Positions 484 through 10,262 of a stretch of 64,000 nt of DNA are shown here, piece after piece (the first letter of the stretch is position 1; each line of letters starts with the position of its first letter). The DNA comes from an uncultured Bacilli bacterium (GTDB taxonomy: Bacteria > Bacillota_I > Bacilli_A > RF39 > UBA660): the NCBI GenBank assembly GCA_947629445.1, contig CANRDU010000001.1, positions 1,386 through 65,385 of the forward strand, written 5' to 3'. The notes beneath the pieces were generated by a model. The model was not told the DNA's origin. It saw only the letters and a program-made list of their open reading frames with translations, and searched no databases. A program made the position numbers and the translations under genes.

Positions 484-1941
484 CTATGGAATTTGATTGA
501 TGATAGATTGATGAGATTTACTATTTAAATAGGAAGAAGAAAGATACTGATTATAATTCTTCTCTATTCTTTCATATTTCAATGTCAAAATTTTACGAAC
601 AGACTCATCAATTCTTTTCTCTGAGATTTTTCCGTTCTTAACAGCATTCTTAATTGCCGTTCTAGCCTTCTCAGGAGAAGCAGGCATTAATAATAAATCA
701 ACTCCTGCTTCTATCGCTTTAACGGGAATTTGATCAGTAGAATAATACTTCGTTAAAGCTCCCATATTTAATGCATCCGTAACTACTAATCCTTTATAGC
801 CCATCTCATTTTTCAAAAAATCCGTAATTAATGTTTTAGATAGCGATGCTGGTGTATTATCCCCCGTAATAGATGGAACTGCTAAATGCCCAATCATAAT
901 GACATCCGCACCATTTTTAATCGCATTTTGAAAAGGAATTAAATCAAGGTCATAAAGTTCTTTTTTTGTCTTATCAACAATAGGAAGAGATACATGAGAA
1001 TCAACAGAAGTATTACCATGACCTGGAAAATGCTTATAAACGGGAATAATACCATTTTCTTCTAGACCTTCAGCAAGAGCTATTCCCATCTTGCTTACTA
1101 CATCACTCGTTTTACCAAATGCCCTTTTACCAATTACTTGATTATTAGGATTCGAATAAACATCCAAAACAGGAGCAAAATCCATATTAATACCAAAAAC
1201 ACGCATTTCTTCCGCCATTACCTTTCCAACATTTTTCGCCAATGTTGTATCTTTTGTGTTTCCAAGATCTTGCATATAAGGAATATAAATAGCTTTTTTA
1301 TCGGTAAGTCCTTGTAAACGCTGAACCCCACCACCTTCTTGATCAACAGAAATAAACATCGGGATATCCGAAGTAGCTTTCACCTTTTTAACAAAATCCA
1401 CCGTCTTCTGATAAGTCGTGAAATTAGCTTTAAACAATATAAAACCACCTGGTTGAATATCTTTTAATCTCTTTTCTAAAGTACTATCATAAGCCTTTTG
1501 ATAATCGATAATCATCATTTGCCCTATTTTTTCATCCAATGTCATACTATTTAAAGTACGCTCTACTTTTTCACTAATAGTCTCGTTAGGAGTACTAGAA
1601 TTACTGTTACTATTCGTATGACTATTTGTATTCGTATGACTGTTGGTATTCGTATTTTGTGTAGAATTAGATGTACTATTCGAATTACTATGAGTATTCG
1701 TATTGGTACTAGTATTCGTATTCGTGTTAGAACTTGTATTAGAATTACTTTCTACATTGGTATTGGAATTTTCCAGTGAGTTACTTTCATCATTCGAGTT
1801 AGATTCTGAATTCGTATCACGGTTATTAGCCAATGTTGGAAGAGTTGATGGTTGTCCCTTCTTCGCAATGAATTGAATTCCAAAAAATAACAAAACAACA
1901 ATAATAACAGCAACAATGCCAGTAACAATTTTCTTCTTCAT
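484..1941 (-). CDS. Glycoside hydrolase family 3 beta-N-acetylhexosaminidase (NagZ-like), membrane-anchored, with an Asn/Ser/Thr-rich linker
   Basis: The N-terminal TM helix is followed by a long N/S/T low-complexity tract. The GH3 signature KHFPGHG and the GH3 fold motifs (GGFILF, VSVDQEGG) are present. Confidence 0.8.
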   Translation of the reverse strand: MKKKIVTGIVAVIIVVLLFFGIQFIAKKGQPSTLPTLANNRDTNSESNSNDESNSLENSNTNVESNSNTSSNTNTNTSTNTNTHSNSNSTSNSTQNTNTNSHTNTNSHTNSNSNSSTPNETISEKVERTLNSMTLDEKIGQMMIIDYQKAYDSTLEKRLKDIQPGGFILFKANFTTYQKTVDFVKKVKATSDIPMFISVDQEGGGVQRLQGLTDKKAIYIPYMQDLGNTKDTTLAKNVGKVMAEEMRVFGINMDFAPVLDVYSNPNNQVIGKRAFGKTSDVVSKMGIALAEGLEENGIIPVYKHFPGHGNTSVDSHVSLPIVDKTKKELYDLDLIPFQNAIKNGADVIMIGHLAVPSITGDNTPASLSKTLITDFLKNEMGYKGLVVTDALNMGALTKYYSTDQIPVKAIEAGVDLLLMPASPEKARTAIKNAVKNGKISEKRIDESVRKILTLKYERIEKNYNQYLSSSYLNSKSHQSIINQIP

Positions 1942-2098
1942 ATTTCTCCTCCCAATCCTCTACTTTATAGTATAACACATTATCTTCATTTGTGCATCTA
2001 TTTTCTACTATCTACATTTGATGAATTCTAGAAATTCAGATATTTCTCTTGCAAACATTTTTTAATTATGGTATATTATAAAAGTACTTAGGATTTTT

Positions 2099-2175
2099 GG
2101 ATCTTTAGCTCAGTTGGTTAGAGCATCCGGCTCATAACCGGACGGTCGTAGGTTCGAGTCCTACAAGATCCACCA
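2099..2175 (+). tRNA. tRNA with anticodon CAT. Ile2 (lysidine) type is favoured over elongator Met.
   Basis: Cloverleaf GGATCTTTAGCTCAGTTGGTTAGAGC...GGCTCATAACCGG...GGTTCGAGTCC...CCA. G1-C72. The anticodon stem lacks the three G-C pairs of initiators. The D-loop and anticodon loop resemble Bacillus tRNA-Ile(LAU). Confidence 0.8.
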
Positions 2176-2182
2176 TTATTCT

Positions 2183-2267
2183 GCGAGTGTGGCGAAATTG
2201 GCAGACGCACTAGACTTAGGATCTAGCGCCGCAAGGCATGGGGGTTCAAGTCCCTTCACTCGCACCA
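2183..2267 (+). tRNA. tRNA-Leu (anticodon TAG), class II with a long variable arm
   Basis: GCGAGTGTGGCGAAATTGGCAGACGC..CTAGACTTAGGATCTAG..long variable arm..GGTTCAAGTCCC..CACTCGCACCA. Anticodon loop CTTAGGA. Confidence 0.85.
2252..2267 (+). repeat. attL-like direct repeat (3' end of tRNA-Leu), CCCTTCACTCGCACCA
   Basis: An exact 16-nt copy recurs at 4621..4636. The upstream AAGT is also shared, with a 1-nt indel. Confidence 0.6.
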
Positions 2268-2280
2268 TTTATTTTGATTA

Positions 2281-3234
2281 TTACATGAAAAATGTGATAA
2301 TAGATTTAGTAATTTTTTTAAAACCCTTGGTCAGTGTATTAAAAAAATCAAATCCTGTGAAAAGACAACTCGGTTGTCTTTTTTCAGTGTGTAAATAAAC
2401 ATCTACAGTCATTGAAACAGTACTATGTCCTAAATCTTTAGAAACAACATCTATAGGAACTCCTTTATGGATCTTATTAGTCGCATAACTATGCCTAAAT
2501 TGATGTTGCGTGATTTCAAACAAACCAGCCTTTTCACATGCTATCTTCTTTTTCCTATCAATAGTCGTAGGTGCTAACGGTTTCATACCACCAAAAAGAA
2601 AATAATCATATACACGACCATACTTTTTTTCATAATAACATTTTAAACAAAATAGTTTCCATCTCATTAGAAAAGAAAGATTAATATAACGAACCGACGA
2701 TTGATTCTTAGGGGTATCAAGCTCTCTATTCCCTCTTCTTTGAATATTATTGTGTATATACAAATATCCACCGTATACATCACTAAATTTTAAAGCCATA
2801 GCTTCTCCAGGTCTAGTACCAAAATGGAAAATAAAATAAAAATATTGTTTCAAAACATAATCATCTAAATACCGATAAAATATCCTAAATTGTCGAGAAT
2901 TATAATACTTATACTCTCTTGTAGAAATAGTCCTTTTAAAATTTCCAACTTTCAAAACAATATTAAATTCTAGATAGGAATAATTGACACAAAACTCAAT
3001 AAAAGCACTGAAAGTATAATATAAATTCCGATCAAAATTATAACTAAAATGCTTATTCAAAATTTCGGTTTGCCAATTAATTATATCAGCGGTGGTTAAA
3101 GAAGAAACTATTCTTCCCTTAAAATAAGGTAAAATATGATTTTTAAAATCCTTGGTCAATGTATAAAATCCTTGTTTTTTATGCCGATTTCGAGCATATA
3201 TTTTGTACTCTTCGTACGCGTCCTCAAATTTCAT
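2281..3234 (-). CDS. Site-specific tyrosine recombinase / phage-type integrase
   Basis: C-terminal catalytic motifs HQFRHSYAT and LGHSTVSMTVDVYLH (R..HxxR..Y). It is adjacent to a tRNA gene. Confidence 0.85.
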   Translation of the reverse strand: MKFEDAYEEYKIYARNRHKKQGFYTLTKDFKNHILPYFKGRIVSSLTTADIINWQTEILNKHFSYNFDRNLYYTFSAFIEFCVNYSYLEFNIVLKVGNFKRTISTREYKYYNSRQFRIFYRYLDDYVLKQYFYFIFHFGTRPGEAMALKFSDVYGGYLYIHNNIQRRGNRELDTPKNQSSVRYINLSFLMRWKLFCLKCYYEKKYGRVYDYFLFGGMKPLAPTTIDRKKKIACEKAGLFEITQHQFRHSYATNKIHKGVPIDVVSKDLGHSTVSMTVDVYLHTEKRQPSCLFTGFDFFNTLTKGFKKITKSIITFFM

Positions 3235-3409
3235 ATATCATCTCCTCAAGCTCCGAGAAGATTATTATATAGAAATTTCTATATTTTTCAAATTCACTTC
3301 ATGACACCACCTACCTATAAATTTATTTTATCATAAAATTAATAGATTTCATTAAAAAAGAACTAAAAAGAAAAAAGTTGCCAATATAACAACTTTTTTT
3401 GCCTATTCT

Positions 3410-3715
3410 AGGCCATAACCTAAGTGACTGGCCATGGAATCATGATTGCTCCTGGGGTGAATGCTTTCTGCCTTATTGGTAGTCAAACTCCAGTTGGTGC
3501 AAAGAAATTTCACTTTAGCTAATCTATGCGTACATGAGATTCAACGCTTCGAAATGTGCGGGAGCACTCGAAGAAGATCCTCATTCGCCTACATATTATC
3601 AAGGGTCTAGATAAACGGACTACGTCCGCCCTTGACAATATTTCGGCTCATGATAAGGGGCCGCTAAGTGATGAAAGAACCGATAGGTTCATTCATCACC
3701 ACGCTCCATTATAAA
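3410..3715. other. GC-rich (~45% GC) non-coding segment inside the integrated element. It is a candidate structured RNA or a foreign remnant.
   Basis: No ORF longer than 27 codons in any frame. The GC content is well above the ~28-30% surroundings. Confidence 0.3.
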
Positions 3716-3812
3716 AAAAATATAAGAATTTATTCCACGGTTAGTTGACTTTATCTCCCATAGGTTTTTGATTAGGACGAATCGTCCAAAAAGGACTAGA
3801 AAGGAGAACGTT

Positions 3813-3926
3813 ATGAAAAAAACAAAAAAAGCCTTAACGCTCGAACAGGCTGAAAGGCTTCATAAAAAATACGGATTAATATTCCAGGTAAAAAATGGAA
3901 TGTTAATCATTCAAAAGGAAGATTGA
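3813..3926 (+). CDS. Small hypothetical protein (37 aa) within the integrated element
   Basis: Strong RBS AAAGGAGA 6 nt upstream of the ATG. It is followed directly by a hairpin plus T-tract. Product: MKKTKKALTLEQAERLHKKYGLIFQVKNGMLIIQKED. Confidence 0.4.
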   Translation: MKKTKKALTLEQAERLHKKYGLIFQVKNGMLIIQKED

Positions 3927-3945
3927 TTCTTCCTTTTTCCTTTTT
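3917..3945 (+). terminator. Rho-independent terminator after the small ORF
   Basis: Hairpin GGAAGA-ttgat-TCTTCC followed by TTTTTCCTTTTT. Confidence 0.5.
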
Positions 3946-4232
3946 GTACGAAAGTATTGTATCAAAAACCCATGGGAAAGTCAACTACTTTCGCGGCATA
4001 AAGGCTAAAGCAGGAAAATACACTAACCACGCTAAAGTGAAATTAGATCTAATCAATATCGCAATCATGATTTAAATGTATCGTTCTTTTTTATATCTAA
4101 AATAACCAACGCACTTTATATTCTTTCACATAATTATCAAACAAAAAATAGGGAATTAAAACAAGTATAGGGGTAAATAACGAGTTTTATCTTATTTTTC
4201 AAAGTCAAACACCTCTTTTTATGTATTTATTA

Positions 4233-4253
4233 CCCCCCTATTAGTATGGGGGG
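4233..4253. repeat. G/C hairpin CCCCCC-tattagtat-GGGGGG
   Basis: Perfect C6/G6 inverted repeat in an AT-rich context. Confidence 0.4.
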
Positions 4254-4261
4254 TACCGATA

Positions 4262-4301
4262 CAACTTTATGCGCGGCGCTAAAACGCTCGCGCAAAAGTT
4301 G
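4262..4301. repeat. 40-nt imperfect palindrome CAACTTTatGCGCGgcgctaaaacgcTCGCGCaAAAGTTG
   Basis: A 7-bp outer stem and a 6-bp GC-rich inner stem. It lies inside a predicted 68-aa ORF that is probably spurious. Confidence 0.4.
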
Positions 4302-4401
4302 CAGATTGAGTTTTTCAATACTTGCCAAATTTTTATAATCTTGATAAATCCGAAATTTATCAATTAAAATTATAACACAAAAAAATGAGAGGTTATACCT
4401 C

Positions 4402-4584
4402 TCAAAAAAATTTATAGACATAATAATAAACGCCACAATAGTTTATTTGAGCTTTATCTCGATTCTTCCAACAATGTTTATGTATTTTTTTTGGAGCTTT
4501 AAAATTAAAAAAAGAAATTAATTCATCAAGAGAATCAAGATAAGCGACAATATTGTCATCTTCATCATAAACAACAAAATACAT
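4402..4584 (-). CDS. Small hypothetical protein (60 aa) in the integrated element
   Basis: RBS AGAAAGGA 4 nt upstream of the ATG. No recognisable domain. Confidence 0.35.
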   Translation of the reverse strand: MYFVVYDEDDNIVAYLDSLDELISFFNFKAPKKIHKHCWKNRDKAQINYCGVYYYVYKFF

Positions 4585-4620
4585 TTGTCCTTTCTAGATT
4601 ATTTCAAAAAGTGTAAGTTC

Positions 4621-4636
4621 CCTTCACTCGCACCAC
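4621..4636 (+). repeat. attR-like direct repeat CCCTTCACTCGCACCA
   Basis: Copy of the tRNA-Leu 3' end (2252..2267). Confidence 0.6.
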
Positions 4637-4847
4637 TTTGATTAATACTCGTATCATAATTACGAGAGTAATAAACGCTAACAGAAATGTTAGTTTTTTG
4701 TTGCAATAAAAAAGCCAAGTCTTTTTAAAACACTTGACTTTAAACATCATTTTTCAAAATAGTAACACACACCGCTATCGGCTAGCCAACTATTAAGAAT
4801 AGTTTGTAATTTTTCAACAATTGTAATATCTGTTAATTTATATTTTT

Positions 4848-5564
4848 TTATTCAAAATTATAATAATGTACTCTATCATAATCTTTTAAAATAGCATCTT
4901 TTATATATGGAGAATTATCATTAATAATCTCTTCTGTTTTATTATAAGTACCGCTTAAATTATATCCCATTGTATCCGCAGCATTATAATCAGCGATTGA
5001 TTTAAAATTAATTATAAACATTTTTTCAAACATCGGATAAGATGAAATCAGATTGTTTTTCATATTTTCAAAACGATCATGGTTTACATACTCAAATACC
5101 CCTAACAGTTTAACATCCTTGAGTACATCACTTAAATTGTTTCCATCATAATAAGTATTAACGCTAAGATTGATACCATTCGTTATGTTAACATCGTTAC
5201 CATATTCTCTATAATATAATCGATATATATAAATATTATTTGAGTCTGGTAATAATTTCATTAAACTAGCAACAATTTCTTCACTTTGGTAGTTATCTTT
5301 ACCTTCGATACTAACCTCATTTCCGATTATATCTACATAAAAAATTTTATTATTATATTCTAATTGAACTGACATATGATTCCCATTGCATGTATTTGTA
5401 TAAATATCATTACTCATTTTTAGACAATGAGCCGATATAAATTTTGGGGTAAATCCATATTTATTTTCTATATAATTAATAGCATTTTCCTTTGCTTGTT
5501 TTTTATAAATTTTTTCAAATTCTTTATCTTCTTTCGTATAGCATCCACATAATCCTAATACCAT
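4848..5564 (-). CDS. Hypothetical lipoprotein-like protein
   Basis: The N-terminus MVLGLCGCY has a Cys lipobox-like site. There is no good SD sequence. The frame stays open upstream (..KKIVLSIVCSIM..), so the true start is uncertain. Confidence 0.45.
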   Translation of the reverse strand: MVLGLCGCYTKEDKEFEKIYKKQAKENAINYIENKYGFTPKFISAHCLKMSNDIYTNTCNGNHMSVQLEYNNKIFYVDIIGNEVSIEGKDNYQSEEIVASLMKLLPDSNNIYIYRLYYREYGNDVNITNGINLSVNTYYDGNNLSDVLKDVKLLGVFEYVNHDRFENMKNNLISSYPMFEKMFIINFKSIADYNAADTMGYNLSGTYNKTEEIINDNSPYIKDAILKDYDRVHYYNFE

Positions 5565-8671: not shown

Positions 8672-10262
8672 ATGCTTCCTTTACATTACCAGTTAAGAAG
8701 TAACCTTGATCTGTTAATTTCTTATCAACAGGGTCACATGTGCTCCACTTAATATCAGTAGATCCACCTTTATAAGTTCTTGTTCTAGCACGATAGTATG
8801 TTTTCACATCATATACTGGAGTGCTAACAGTATCATATACATCAACTTCTCTAGTTGCATATACTGGTGTTTTCTTTGTCTTATATACTGGAACTTTTTT
8901 AGTCGTGTATACTGGAACTTTTTTAGTCGTGTATACTGGAACTTGTCTTGTTTCATATACTGGTTCTGTTCTATAGACTGGTTCATCAACAGTTTCTGTT
9001 ACCGTCTTATAAACAGTTGTAAGTTTATAAACATCCCAAGTATAAATCGTAGTTGTTGCACATCCTGAACAGCTTTGTGAAGTTGTTGAGCCTGTTTTTA
9101 CATAGACATATTCTTTTGTATCAGAAGGAATCGTTGTTCCTGATCCTGATGATACCCATTGTCTTGTAGTACCAGCGGCAACCTTCTTGGTAATTGTTTT
9201 AGTAGTCGTACCTACTTGTACTTTTTTAGTACCTACTTGTACTTTTTGCGTTGTATAACCTGAAATCTCTTTTTCTGTTGTGTAGCCTGTTTGTTGTTTT
9301 TCATATGTATAACCTGAAAGTTCTTTAGAAGTTTGATATTTTTCAAGATAAGTCTCAAGTTTTGTACCAACTTTTACTTTCTTTTCCGTATATCCTACTA
9401 CTACACGTTCAGATTTTGTTTCAACTTGTGTATTATCGCTTGGAGTGATTTTAGTTTCTGTCCAACTAGACCAACTTCCCCAATCTCCCCAGCTTCCACC
9501 GGTTACTTTCTTGTATTCGCAAATATATTTTTTCTTAGCAGTTCCACATGATTTCTCATAAGCTTCCTTAGAAACTGACTTTCCTTTAGCATCGTAATAC
9601 TTACCACCTACTACTTGACAGTAATATTTTGGTTTCTCACAATCACAATTTTCATAGTAGTTATTAACGGTAACTTCTACTACTTTCTTAACAGTTTCTT
9701 TCTTTCCAGAACCTGTTGAAGGTTTTGTAGGAGTTGTTGTAGTAGTTTGTTTTTCACAAACACCACTTGCCTCACAATAATCGTAGCATCCTAAGTAAAC
9801 AATAATGTAATCTTCCTCAGAACCACAACTTAAATTAACCTTCATTTGATATTCATCTTCATATTTCGTTACTGAAACATAAGATTTTGTAGCATCACAT
9901 GCGTTATTATTTTTATCTTTTAAAGTTAATACCAAATGCTTATCATACATTTGTTGAAGGGTCATCTTTTCGGTATCTCCGACCTTAGCAGGTAACCTAT
10001 CAGTTGTATAATAAGATATAGCAGCCTCTTTCATAGTAGCAATATTATTTGCAAAAATCTGATTATATAAAACTGCTAATTGATCTAAGTCATATCCTCC
10101 TTGGACAACGGTATTGTTTCCATCGACATTATTATCAATGTAGTTCTTCATATAACTCTTAGTTGGGAATAGCCATATTAATATAAAGACAAATAATACT
10201 ATGAATAAAACTTGTAAGATTAAATCTCTTACTGAAAAACTTTCTCTTCTTTCTTCGTACAT
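8670..10262 (-). CDS. Membrane-anchored (N-terminal TM) Cys-rich extracytoplasmic protein with C-terminal tandem PVYxTKKx repeats
   Basis: The N-terminus MYEERRESFSVRDLILQVLFIVLFVFILIWLF is a signal-anchor. The middle region is Cys-rich. The C-terminus has the repeats ..PVYETRQVPVYTTKKVPVYTTKKVPVYKTKKTPVYATREV.. The repeat is visible at DNA level. Confidence 0.6.
   Translation of the reverse strand: MYEERRESFSVRDLILQVLFIVLFVFILIWLFPTKSYMKNYIDNNVDGNNTVVQGGYDLDQLAVLYNQIFANNIATMKEAAISYYTTDRLPAKVGDTEKMTLQQMYDKHLVLTLKDKNNNACDATKSYVSVTKYEDEYQMKVNLSCGSEEDYIIVYLGCYDYCEASGVCEKQTTTTTPTKPSTGSGKKETVKKVVEVTVNNYYENCDCEKPKYYCQVVGGKYYDAKGKSVSKEAYEKSCGTAKKKYICEYKKVTGGSWGDWGSWSSWTETKITPSDNTQVETKSERVVVGYTEKKVKVGTKLETYLEKYQTSKELSGYTYEKQQTGYTTEKEISGYTTQKVQVGTKKVQVGTTTKTITKKVAAGTTRQWVSSGSGTTIPSDTKEYVYVKTGSTTSQSCSGCATTTIYTWDVYKLTTVYKTVTETVDEPVYRTEPVYETRQVPVYTTKKVPVYTTKKVPVYKTKKTPVYATREVDVYDTVSTPVYDVKTYYRARTRTYKGGSTDIKWSTCDPVDKKLTDQGYFLTGNVKEA
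8866..8985. repeat. Five degenerate copies of a 24-nt coding tandem repeat (TATACTGGAACTTTTTTAGTCGTG)
   Basis: Direct tandem repeats that encode the PVYxTKKx units. Confidence 0.7.

What the first reader, a model, noticed from the sequence alone, without database searches (positions are those of the whole stretch)
2099..4636. A small integrase element is inserted at the tRNA-Leu 3' end, with a direct-repeat boundary
A tyrosine integrase gene ends 14 nt past tRNA-Leu(TAG). The last 16 nt of the tRNA (CCCTTCACTCGCACCA, plus a nearly shared AAGT upstream) are repeated at 4621..4636. This is the classic attL/attR signature of site-specific integration into a tRNA 3' end.

At about 2.4 kb the element is far smaller than prophages, ICEs or PICIs. 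It carries only the integrase, two or three tiny ORFs, a GC-rich non-coding block and strong GC hairpins. This suggests either a decayed island or a minimal integrative, possibly helper-dependent, element.
Basis: seen in the sequence. Interest (0 to 1): 0.6.

Follow-up and report, generated by a model that had tools for sequence, protein, structure and literature searches.

The report
Stripped-down filamentous prophage at tRNA-Leu
The 2.4-kb insert at the end of tRNA-Leu is a cut-down filamentous phage that keeps an intact integrase, its attachment sites and a replication-origin hairpin but has no replication or virion genes, so it is probably a hitch-hiker on a full-size helper phage, though it could be a recently disabled prophage.

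Summary
tRNA-Leu(TAG) lies at 2183-2267. A 317-aa tyrosine integrase (2281-3234, minus strand) stops 14 nt beyond it. The last 17 nt of the tRNA recur at 4619-4635, one base off the reported coordinates (0 of 100 shuffles).

The element derives from integrative inoviruses of uncultured gut Bacilli. Its DNA relatives in GenBank are 5-7 kb circular inoviruses. In three related MAGs the same tRNA-Leu carries a full inovirus prophage (two delimited at 5.7 and 6.6 kb) with homologous ends. One of these (incompletely assembled) has an integrase 96% identical.

Here everything between the first phage gene (ORF1) and int is replaced by about 1.2 kb of orphan sequence. That sequence holds a 13-codon stump of a Rep_trans gene with a pT181-like origin hairpin, a 310-nt GC-rich structured block, and a 37-aa ORF between inverted promoter-like repeats.

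The integrase is intact and under purifying selection (dN/dS about 0.1).

Elements bounded by tRNA repeats in this integrase family are bimodal in size: 5.3-9.7 kb or 2.2-3.3 kb. Four other Rep-less minis keep the origin region. One shares a 250-nt origin, 100% identical, with a full-size phage in the same MAG.

Best reading: a helper-dependent mini-inovirus (about 0.5). Rival: an inert remnant (about 0.4). No helper or empty site was found.

The parts
2183..2267 (+). tRNA-Leu(TAG), the integration target. The attL core is its last 17 nt (2251-2267). tRNA-Met(CAT) at 2099-2175 lies upstream in the same operon, with a promoter-like site at 2049-2077.
   Evidence: ARAGORN, Rfam tRNA 55.5 bits, repeat search, promoter scan.
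2268..2386 (+). Putative anti-int RNA, which would also be the tRNA 3' trailer. It has three parts: a hairpin at 2277-2301 containing an extended -10-like TGTGATAAT; a segment at 2315-2343 that is the complement of int mRNA codons about 22-32; and a terminator hairpin AAGACAAC-TCGG-GTTGTCTT followed by a T-run at 2358-2386. It runs antisense to the int 3' tail.
   Evidence: Direct repeat 2315-2343 / 3140-3168, 26 of 29. Fold of three hairpins, z -4.9, with CCCUUGGUCAG in an apical loop. Across the family, the repeat is found in 40 of 66 loci and the antisense terminator in 36 of 66, against 0 of 66 on the sense strand. The function is inferred.
2281..3234 (-). Tyrosine integrase, 317 aa, intact.
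   Evidence: Pfam and PHROGs. All catalytic positions (R141, K176, H244, R247, H270, Y280) fall in invariant columns of a 20-sequence alignment. dN/dS against L024 is 0.095. Changes polarised to the window branch are 6 non-synonymous and 12 synonymous.
3264..3291 (-). int promoter-like site: TTGAAA, 16 nt, TATAAT. The int-upstream region 3235-3335 is shared with L024, and 3235-3373 with L053.
   Evidence: Promoter scan, 11 of 12 matches. blastn.
3372..3400 (.). A/T-flanked hairpin (AAAAAAGTTG...CAACTTTTTT) that reads as a terminator in both directions and insulates int from upstream transcription.
   Evidence: Read from the sequence. It is included in the 88% match to L053.
3400..3712 (.). GC-rich (44%), strongly structured non-coding block of unknown identity. 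It occupies the position between the rep remnant and int, where L060 has an sso-like structured region downstream of rep. It is a candidate minus-strand origin or packaging region, or alternatively an RNA gene.
   Evidence: Composition. Folds. No Rfam family. No RSB motif. No homologue in 236 loci, phages or plasmids.
3742..3987 (.). Small regulatory-looking module. Inverted repeats at 3742-3772 and 3961-3987 each contain TTGACT, and the right one forms a strong minus-strand promoter (TTGACT, 17 nt, TACAAT with TG, 3984-3956). They flank a 37-aa ORF (3813-3926, plus strand, good RBS) and its terminator (3913-3937).
   Evidence: Repeats. Promoter and terminator scan. The ORF has no homologue apart from itself in 5.8 billion clusters.
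4219..4260 (-). Stump of a Rep_trans gene, 13 codons (IGTPHTNRGVINT) then a stop. It contains the origin-type hairpin TACCCCCC-ATACTAATA-GGGGGGTA (4231-4255).
   Evidence: 89% identical over 38 nt to L040 5946-5983. The same hairpin occurs in L060. tblastn finds only these 13 residues of Rep. L040 and L060 Rep are PF02486 Rep_trans. In pT181 the hairpin AACCGGCTACTCTAATAGCCGGTT sits in the same place in repC, and the pT181-family dso lies inside rep (PMC5703833).
4262..4301 (.). Long GC hairpin (CAACTTTATGCGCG...CGCGCAAAAGTTG) immediately next to the origin hairpin. L040 and L060 have an analogous hairpin just upstream of rep. It is a candidate packaging signal or operon terminator.
   Evidence: Sequence. 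Comparison with L040 5876-5902 and L060 6410-6440. The function is inferred.
4402..4584 (-). ORF1, 60 aa: the conserved first gene of these inoviruses next to attP, function unknown. Its terminator is at 4386-4404.
   Evidence: 49% identical to L015 ORF1. Aligns with 10 homologues from full phages and Rep-less minis. No family, PDB-sequence or fold match.
4619..4635 (+). attR core, a copy of the tRNA-Leu 3' end. The displaced native tRNA terminator (CTAACA-GAAA-TGTTAG plus T-run) follows at 4678-4699.
   Evidence: The terminator is read. L015 has an equivalent terminator outside its attR.

Best explanation
The interval 2251-4635 is an integrated, stripped-down derivative of a temperate filamentous phage (inovirus) of uncultured gut Bacilli. 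That phage integrates into the 3' end of tRNA-Leu(TAG) using its own tyrosine integrase.

What is shown:
- Both ends (int plus attL, and attR plus ORF1) are homologous to the ends of full-length inovirus prophages at the same tRNA (two delimited at 5.7 and 6.6 kb).
- All virion and morphogenesis genes and the rolling-circle Rep are missing.
- The integrase is intact and has evolved under purifying selection.
- Of a Rep_trans gene, only the first 13 codons survive, and those codons are exactly the ones that contain the pT181-type origin hairpin.

What is inferred: the element is a helper-dependent 'mini-inovirus'. Int (perhaps with ORF1) excises and re-integrates it. A co-infecting or co-resident full-size inovirus with a matching Rep_trans would nick the retained hairpin and replicate it by rolling circle. 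The GC-rich structured block and the neighbouring long hairpin would serve as the minus-strand origin and/or packaging signal. The helper's coat and Zot machinery would export it.

A further inference: the tRNA operon reads into a phage-supplied segment complementary to int codons about 22-32, followed by a terminator. This would keep int silent while the element is integrated.
For: **Ancestry**
- blastn of the element hits only inovirus integrase genes in GenBank phages: bajarodino viruses 49 and 33 and Dulem viruses 59 and 71 (the three examined are circular, 5.3-7.1 kb, with Zot and Rep).
- L014, L015 and L024 carry full inovirus prophages at the same tRNA-Met/tRNA-Leu locus, with integrases 72%, 68% and 96% identical.
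- Homology to the window covers 2049-3335 and 4522-4647 only.
- L040 has a Pfam Zot domain, L015 has a PHROG Zot-like protein, and the Reps are Rep_OBD or Rep_trans.

**Function retained**
- Catalytic residues are invariant.
- dN/dS is 0.095 against L024.
- The window branch carries 6 non-synonymous and 12 synonymous changes, and the L024 branch 2 and 6. There is no sign of relaxed selection.
- ORF1 is full length.

**Origin hairpin retained**
-.

**Recurrence of the architecture**
- Elements bounded by tRNA repeats fall into two size classes, 5.3-9.7 kb and 2.2-3.3 kb (about a dozen minis among 42 delimited elements).
- Four other minis (L036, L052, L067, L075) have ORF1 and int but no Rep, Zot or large structural genes.
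- The three whose non-coding DNA was read (L036, L067, L075) keep the intergenic origin region with the TACTACGAC nick hairpin. In L075 this is followed by 17 rep codons and a stop.

**Helper link in other genomes**
- The L075 mini and the L048 full phage lie in the same MAG. They share about 250 nt of origin region at 100% identity, while their integrases are only 66% identical and use different tRNAs.
- L036 and L050 show the same pattern.

**Antisense module**
-.
Against: - No helper was found. The window has no Zot, Rep or coat homologue. None of 105 Rep_trans homologues has the window's N-terminal motif. An exact-hairpin scan of metagenomes found nothing, and a relaxed scan found many origins but none sharing the rest of the middle region.
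- The 1.2-kb middle, including the GC block and the 37-aa ORF, is an orphan. It has no relatives in phages, plasmids, 236 loci or 5.8 billion protein clusters. Nothing shows that it is a functional origin.
- The GC block lacks the RSB motif that marks sso regions in some relatives.
- Unlike the other Rep-less minis, this element has no coat or ssb-like genes.
- Only filled sites were seen, identical across samples, so there is no evidence of mobility.
- The extended att repeat has a 1-nt indel, and the int 5'/3' repeat is less perfect here (26 of 29) than in L024, L014 and L015 (25 of 25 exact).
- MAG co-binning of a mini and a helper is not proof that they share a cell.
Confidence: 0.5

Rival explanations
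1. Inert remnant. A full-length inovirus prophage at tRNA-Leu lost its middle through deletion or illegitimate recombination, and unrelated DNA took its place. The integrase and ORF1 are still intact only because the event is recent, or because int has some other retained use. The element no longer moves.
For: - Related MAGs have full-length prophages at the very same site, and the chromosomal flanks diverge about as much as int does (73-77% against 77% for L015). This is compatible with an old, vertically inherited prophage.
- The middle region is an orphan.
- No empty site or second location was found.
- The extended att repeat and the int 5'/3' repeat are both slightly degraded.
- There is no helper in the window.
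Against: - The integrase shows no relaxation of constraint on the window branch.
- The one piece of rep that survives is exactly the origin hairpin.
- The same selective loss, with trans-acting genes gone and cis-acting origin, int, att and ORF1 kept, recurs in four other lineages with a different Rep family. In one of them the origin is 100% identical to that of a co-resident full phage.
- Both copies of the int 5'/3' repeat changed in concert relative to L024.
Confidence: 0.4
2. The GC-rich block is a structured non-coding RNA gene carried as cargo. It would be transcribed from the strong minus-strand promoter at 3984-3956 and end at the 3400-3372 terminator. The mini element would then be a vehicle for that RNA rather than a replication parasite.
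For: - The block is a GC island in an AT-rich genome, with RNA fold z -6.3 / -4.9.
- It is flanked by a promoter-like site and a terminator-like hairpin on the minus strand.
Against: - No Rfam family matches, even with lax filters.
- There are no homologues anywhere, so covariation cannot be tested.
- The stems are almost entirely Watson-Crick and fold equally well on both strands and as DNA. This fits DNA-level hairpins at least as well as an RNA.
Confidence: 0.1

Closest known systems
Integrative inoviruses of Gram-positive gut bacteria with their own tyrosine integrase (bajarodino viruses 33 and 49, Dulem virus 59; the prophages in L014, L015 and L024)
   Same: The integrase is 57-96% identical at protein level. 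The att core is a tRNA 3' end. ORF1 lies next to attP. The int-upstream region and the antisense terminator and repeat inside the int 3' end are shared.
   Different: Those genomes are 5.3-7.1 kb (free) or 5.7-6.6 kb (delimited prophages) and encode Rep, a Zot-type ATPase, coat and adsorption proteins. The window element has none of these in its 2.4 kb.
Satellite filamentous phages RS1 and TLC-phi of Vibrio cholerae
   Same: They are integrated, inovirus-derived elements without morphogenesis genes, and they depend on a helper filamentous phage for packaging (PMC11389934 for RS1; TLC-phi is named as a satellite phage in the references of PMC12715192).
   Different: From my own knowledge, RS1 and TLC-phi encode their own replication initiator and integrate at dif through host XerCD. 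This element has no Rep, carries its own tyrosine integrase and targets a tRNA.
Ff (f1/M13) miniphages, or defective interfering particles
   Same: The genome is reduced to cis-acting replication and packaging sequences, and is replicated and packaged by helper functions in trans (own knowledge).
   Different: Miniphages have no integrase and do not lysogenise. Here the cis-acting role of the retained sequences is inferred, not shown.
pT181-family rolling-circle origin (IR-II nick hairpin inside repC)
   Same: The hairpin lies in the first codons of a Rep_trans gene, and its loop ends in CTAATAG (window ATACTAATAG, L040 CTACTAATAG, pT181 CTACTCTAATAG). The dso lies inside the rep coding region (PMC5703833).
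   Different: The stems are G/C runs rather than CCGG. The exact nick position in pT181 is from my memory. No Rep is present here to use the hairpin.
Lambda sib retroregulation and integration-dependent immunity of mycobacteriophages (concepts in which integration rewires int or repressor expression)
   Same: The integration state would decide int expression, because a cis element next to att changes its transcriptional context (own knowledge of both systems).
   Different: The proposed effector here is an RNA complementary to the int 5' coding region, placed directly 3' of the host tRNA. I know of no described equivalent. It is untested.

Membership tests
Site-specifically integrated element at a tRNA 3' end (tyrosine-integrase type) | Tyrosine recombinase with the catalytic R...K...HxxR...H...Y set, encoded next to one junction | tested here: met
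   Pfam PF00589 and PF14659. R141, K176, H244, R247, H270 and Y280 lie in invariant columns. The gene ends 14 nt from the tRNA.
Site-specifically integrated element at a tRNA 3' end (tyrosine-integrase type) | Direct repeat of the tRNA 3' end at the far boundary, with the tRNA reconstituted | tested here: met
   A 17-nt exact repeat, 0 of 100 shuffles. The tRNA is intact.
Site-specifically integrated element at a tRNA 3' end (tyrosine-integrase type) | Empty-site allele (attB) in relatives, or an attP in a free form | tested here: inconclusive
   No empty site was found: all contigs of the same species are filled. Related species carry a different, larger element between the same junctions. 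A free phage, L002, has int, a tRNA-like core and ORF1 joined as an attP.
Inovirus (filamentous phage) prophage | Zot/pI-type morphogenesis ATPase, major coat protein and rolling-circle Rep | tested here: not met
   tblastn with all proteins of L014, L015 and L016 finds only int and ORF1 in the 64-kb window. Only 13 codons of a Rep_trans gene remain.
Inovirus (filamentous phage) prophage | Sequence homology to inovirus genomes | tested here: met
   int, the att region and ORF1 are homologous to annotated inoviruses and to Zot/Rep-bearing prophages.
Satellite or mini filamentous phage (helper-dependent) | Lacks virion and morphogenesis genes but keeps the cis-acting origin | tested here: inconclusive
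   The genes are absent. A pT181-like origin hairpin is kept. Whether the hairpin, the GC block and the long hairpin are sufficient in cis is unknown.
Satellite or mini filamentous phage (helper-dependent) | A helper phage with a matching origin and Rep in the same host | not testable with these tools
   Only 64 kb of the genome is available. No matching Rep_trans was found in the databases. The criterion is met for analogous minis elsewhere (L075/L048 and L036/L050).
Satellite or mini filamentous phage (helper-dependent) | Packaged as ssDNA in helper virions | not testable with these tools
   This needs virion DNA. IMG/VR holds no close relatives.
ssoA-type single-strand origin of rolling-circle replicons | Conserved RSB (TTATGCCGAGAAAATTT) and CS-6 (TAGCGT) motifs within a large hairpin structure (PMC4598088) | tested here: not met
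   There is no RSB within 3 mismatches anywhere in the window. Only loose CS-6-like strings (TAGCGG, CGTAGT) occur. Extensive structure is present. By contrast, 7 related loci carry the RSB core exactly.
Any curated RNA family (Rfam 15) | A covariance-model score at or near the gathering threshold | tested here: not met
   The best hit in 3300-4420 is CsrC at 20.8 bits, against a threshold of 61.

The most novel reading that the evidence does not exclude
Two linked readings remain open.

(1) Gut Bacilli harbour a previously undescribed class of integrase-bearing, Rep-less 'mini-inoviruses' of 2.2-2.5 kb. They keep only int, att, ORF1 and an origin copied from a resident full-size filamentous phage, and they park at a different tRNA from their helper. 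The window element would be one of them.

(2) The whole integrase family carries a built-in sensor of integration state. A copy of int codons about 20-32 sits, in antisense orientation, between the tRNA 3' end and a phage-supplied terminator. Host tRNA transcription would therefore produce an anti-int RNA only when the element is integrated.
Probability: 0.35. Interest if true: 0.75.

Novelty: new variant of a known kind. Interest (0 to 1): 0.55.

Why it matters
Filamentous phages of Gram-positive gut bacteria are barely studied. The known filamentous satellites (RS1, TLC-phi) come from Vibrio and use host Xer recombination.

If this element and its four Rep-less cousins really are helper-dependent, they would be the smallest integrase-carrying phage satellites known. 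They would also give a simple model of how a satellite keeps its origin matched to the helper while choosing its own chromosomal site.

The conserved antisense copy of the int 5' region placed behind the tRNA would be a new and easily testable way for a prophage to read its own integration state.

If the element is only a remnant, it still shows that tRNA-Leu(TAG) is an inovirus hot spot in this clade. It also explains the GC hairpins as origin relics.

Tried and rejected
- **Known structured RNA for the GC block.** Rfam gave nothing at E up to 1 over 10 kb, and nothing near threshold with lax filters over 1.1 kb.
- **Canonical ssoA.** No RSB motif is present, and there is no significant local alignment to the intergenic or sso-like regions of 8 relatives.
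- **Homologues of the middle region.**
  - blastn against phages and plasmids hit int only, or nothing.
  - A 19-mer scan of IMG/VR found nothing.
  - The 37-aa ORF has no relative (two malformed attempts).
  - blastn against 236 fetched loci matched only the hairpin.
- **Helper search.**
  - No phage proteins are encoded in the window.
  - The exact origin hairpin is absent from viral and metagenome collections.
  - A relaxed pattern gave more than 120 unrelated Rep_trans origins.
  - The 105 Rep_trans homologues all carry (T/P)PxTNRGV, but none has the window's variant.
- **Empty site.** Look-ups of both flanking proteins returned only filled sites.
- **Free circular minis.** Small contigs carrying related integrases turned out to be chromosomal junction fragments. 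IMG/VR has only relatives at 30% identity.
- **ORF1 function.** No Pfam or PHROG hit, a PDB sequence hit at E 0.37 only, an AF2 model with pLDDT 76, and no Foldseek match below E 0.6.
- **A protein-level explanation for the int N-terminal/C-terminal repeat.** Rejected as the sole cause, because in L003 and L004 the second copy lies beyond the stop codon.


Full report
**1. Observation**

ARAGORN and Rfam place tRNA-Met(CAT) at 2099-2175 and tRNA-Leu(TAG) at 2183-2267.

A 317-aa ORF on the minus strand (2281-3234) is a tyrosine integrase. It matches Pfam Phage_integrase and Phage_int_SAM_3, and PHROG 1.

The 16-mer CCCTTCACTCGCACCA occurs only at 2252-2267 and 4620-4635. No shuffle out of 100 gave two copies. 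The exact repeat is 17 nt, 2251-2267 = 4619-4635. The finding is right apart from a one-base offset.

The GC-rich block (about 3400-3712, 44% GC in a roughly 28% GC setting) and the GC hairpins are real, and they fold far better than shuffles.

**2. What it derives from**

blastn of the element against GenBank phages hits only the integrase genes of small inoviruses: bajarodino viruses 49 and 33 and Dulem viruses 59 and 71. The three records examined are circular, 5.3-7.1 kb, and annotated with Zot and a replication initiator.

The integrase family is large, with 672 proteins at E <= 1e-10. Its hosts are uncultured gut Bacilli/'Tenericutes' MAGs.

The closest homologues sit in full inovirus prophages at the same tRNA-Met/tRNA-Leu(TAG) pair:
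- L014 (72% identical) and L015 (68%) carry small ORFs, a Zot-like ATPase, a 412-491-aa protein, a Rep_OBD Rep, and then int.
- L015 also shares chromosomal synteny with the window on both sides.
- L024, from a rabbit MAG, has an integrase 96% identical (91.5% at DNA level). Upstream of it lie a Zot C-terminus, 161-, 429- and 91-aa proteins, an intergenic region and a 204-aa Rep_OBD Rep.

Homology between the window and these prophages covers only 2049-3335 (tRNAs, int, int promoter) and 4522-4647 (att core and start of ORF1). It ends on the int side exactly at the stop of the L024 rep gene.

A free phage genome (L002) joins int, a tRNA-like core and ORF1 as an attP.

The native tRNA terminator is now just outside attR, at 4678-4699. 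L015 shows the same arrangement.

The element is therefore a genuine integrated element of inovirus ancestry. It is not core sequence and not a partial second tRNA.

**3. What is left inside**

No Zot, coat, adsorption or Rep homologue exists anywhere in the 64-kb window.

Between ORF1 and the int promoter lie about 1.2 kb with no relative in any collection searched. Only one short piece is recognisable.

On the int-sense strand, 4260-4219 reads IGTPHTNRGVINT followed by a stop. It contains the hairpin TACCCCCC-ATACTAATA-GGGGGGTA. This is 89% identical to the first codons of the rep gene of L040, and like those of L060. Both of those Reps are Pfam Rep_trans plus Rol_Rep_N.

The motif (T/P)PxTNRGV recurs in the N-termini of the 25 best-matching of 105 Rep_trans homologues.

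In pT181 the hairpin AACCGGCTACTCTAATAGCCGGTT lies in the same place in repC. The pT181-family double-strand origin is known to lie inside the rep coding region (PMC5703833).

The 'strong GC hairpin' is therefore an origin-type hairpin, and it is the only part of rep that survives.

Next to it is a 40-nt GC hairpin (4262-4301). L040 and L060 have a counterpart just upstream of rep.

Further towards int are a 37-aa ORF between inverted, promoter-like repeats and the GC block.

The GC block has:
- no Rfam match;
- no RSB motif, although seven relatives carry the RSB core of ssoA-type origins exactly;
- no detectable similarity to the intergenic regions of relatives.

Its stems are almost all Watson-Crick, and it folds equally well on both strands and as DNA.

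L060 has a 450-nt structured block downstream of rep, with RSB-like and CS-6-like strings (DNA fold z -8.6). Its position is comparable to that of the window's block. The sso/packaging reading rests on position and structure only.

**4. Is it alive?**

The integrase keeps every catalytic residue.

dN/dS against L024 is 0.095, with dS 0.22. Polarising the differences with L014 and L015 as outgroups gives 6 non-synonymous and 12 synonymous changes on the window branch, and 2 and 6 on the L024 branch. There is no sign of relaxed selection.

ORF1 is full length and aligns along its whole length with its homologues. Its function remains unknown.

**5. A recurrent small size class**

In 42 loci I could delimit the element by a tRNA-end direct repeat. 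Sizes are bimodal: 5.3-9.7 kb or 2.2-3.3 kb.

The small ones are of two kinds:
- Rep + RHH-like protein + int. Examples are L016 and L026 at tRNA-His, seen in 24 contigs.
- Rep-less elements: L036 (2170 bp), L052 (2242), L067 (2383) and L075 (2520). These have an ORF1 homologue, one to three small genes (ssb-like, coat-like) and int.

L075, L067 and L036 retain the intergenic region with a hairpin whose loop is the pMV158-family nick 9-mer TACTACGAC (PMC3387028). In L075 it is followed by 17 rep codons and a stop.

The same selective loss has thus happened with two different Rep families. Trans-acting genes are gone, while the origin, int, att and ORF1 are kept.

In two MAGs a mini co-occurs with a full-size relative:
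- L075 and L048 share about 250 nt of origin region at 100% identity, bounded by abrupt divergence. Their coat genes are 87% identical, ORF1 78% and int 66%, and they use different tRNAs.
- L036 and L050 behave similarly.

This is the pattern expected of a satellite whose origin tracks its helper's Rep. The caveat is that MAG binning does not prove co-residence in one cell.

**6. Verdict on the window element**

Its ancestry is secure: an inovirus integrated at tRNA-Leu by its own integrase.

Whether it is an active helper-dependent mini-inovirus or a recently disabled remnant cannot be decided here.

- For activity: the constrained integrase, the origin hairpin surviving on its own, and the recurrent architecture.
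- Against activity: no helper found; an orphan middle region; no coat or ssb genes; only filled and identical sites in all samples; and slightly imperfect repeats.

I put the satellite reading at about 0.5 and the remnant reading at about 0.4.

**7. A family-wide feature noticed on the way**

In 40 of 66 loci, an exact stretch of 15 nt or more (up to 42 nt) from int nt about 60-95 recurs at nt about 860-940. That second position is in the C-terminal tail, or beyond the stop codon in the short-integrase phages L003 and L004.

The sequence differs from element to element, and the two copies co-vary at both protein and DNA level.

On the strand opposite to int, the second copy is followed by a hairpin plus T-run. 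This was found at a fixed position in 36 of 66 loci, against 0 of 66 on the sense strand and 3 of 66 in a control region. Its stems co-vary.

The tRNA lies on that strand and points into int. The tRNA operon would therefore transcribe this anti-int segment and stop at the phage-supplied terminator.

In the window, the 125-nt trailer folds into three hairpins (z -4.9), with CCCUUGGUCAG in an apical loop.

I read this as an antisense regulator of int that could report the integrated state. It is an inference, and I did not find it described.

Noticed in passing
window 2315-2343 and 3140-3168; L003 4473-4511 / 5318-5356; L004 1969-1997 / 2790-2818; L014 8066-8095 / 8894-8923; L016 at about 8086 and about 8914: Each integrase gene of this family repeats 15-42 nt of its own 5' coding region (codons about 20-32) some 825 nt downstream, in its C-terminal tail or just past the stop codon. 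The sequence differs between elements but is nearly identical within each one (40 of 66 loci have an exact run of 15 nt or more). In the protein alignment, the N-terminal motif and the tail motif co-vary.
   Followed up: partly
window 2358-2386 (plus strand); int nt about 855-890 in L014-L094: A terminator-like hairpin plus T-run lies on the strand opposite to int, inside the int 3' end, immediately after the repeat copy. It occurs in 36 of 66 loci, against 0 of 66 on the sense strand, and its stems co-vary. Together with the host tRNA reading into it, this suggests a tRNA-driven anti-int RNA.
   Followed up: partly
L016 6352-9007, L026, L033, L045, L080, L082, L083 and L056: This is a second class of 2.65-3.2 kb integrated mini elements. 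They consist only of a rolling-circle Rep (REP_ORF2-G2P or Rep_OBD), usually a small RHH-like protein, and the same family of integrase. Several insert at tRNA-His; the other sites were not identified. L016 was seen in 24 contigs from several samples.
   Followed up: partly
L075 8573-8822 and L048 8063-8312: About 250 nt of the intergenic origin region, including the last codons of Zot and the TACTACGAC nick hairpin, are 100% identical between a 2.5-kb Rep-less mini and a full-size inovirus in the same MAG. Their integrases are only 66% identical.
   Followed up: yes
L033 2807-3757 and 5802-6589: There are two integrase copies about 2.8 kb apart, and the 40-nt 'att' repeat extends beyond the tRNA-like core. 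This looks like a tandem array of mini elements.
   Followed up: no
L143 (2380 nt, hairpin at 3-22 and 2256-2275), L173 (2626 nt, 2-21 and 2536-2555) and L128: These metagenome contigs start and end with the same Rep_trans-type nick hairpin. They are probably small circular rolling-circle replicons of about 2.25-2.5 kb whose assembly broke at the origin.
   Followed up: no
window 3562-3631 (ends of contigs L001, L007, L009 and L010) and 3373 (end of L053): Independent low-coverage metagenome contigs of the same species break inside the GC block, at its longest inverted repeat. A related MAG contig ends at the 3372-3400 hairpin. This is probably an assembler artefact at palindromes, but a second copy of the block elsewhere in the genome would give the same picture.
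   Followed up: no
window 3755-3957: The region around the 37-aa ORF is dense in GGA motifs. It gives a weak CsrC-like Rfam hit of 20.8 bits against a threshold of 61, which is most likely chance.
   Followed up: no
window 484-1941: The 485-aa protein next to the tRNAs has a long N-terminal Asn/Ser/Thr-rich low-complexity linker after a signal or anchor segment. This gene is absent from the syntenic position in L015.
   Followed up: no
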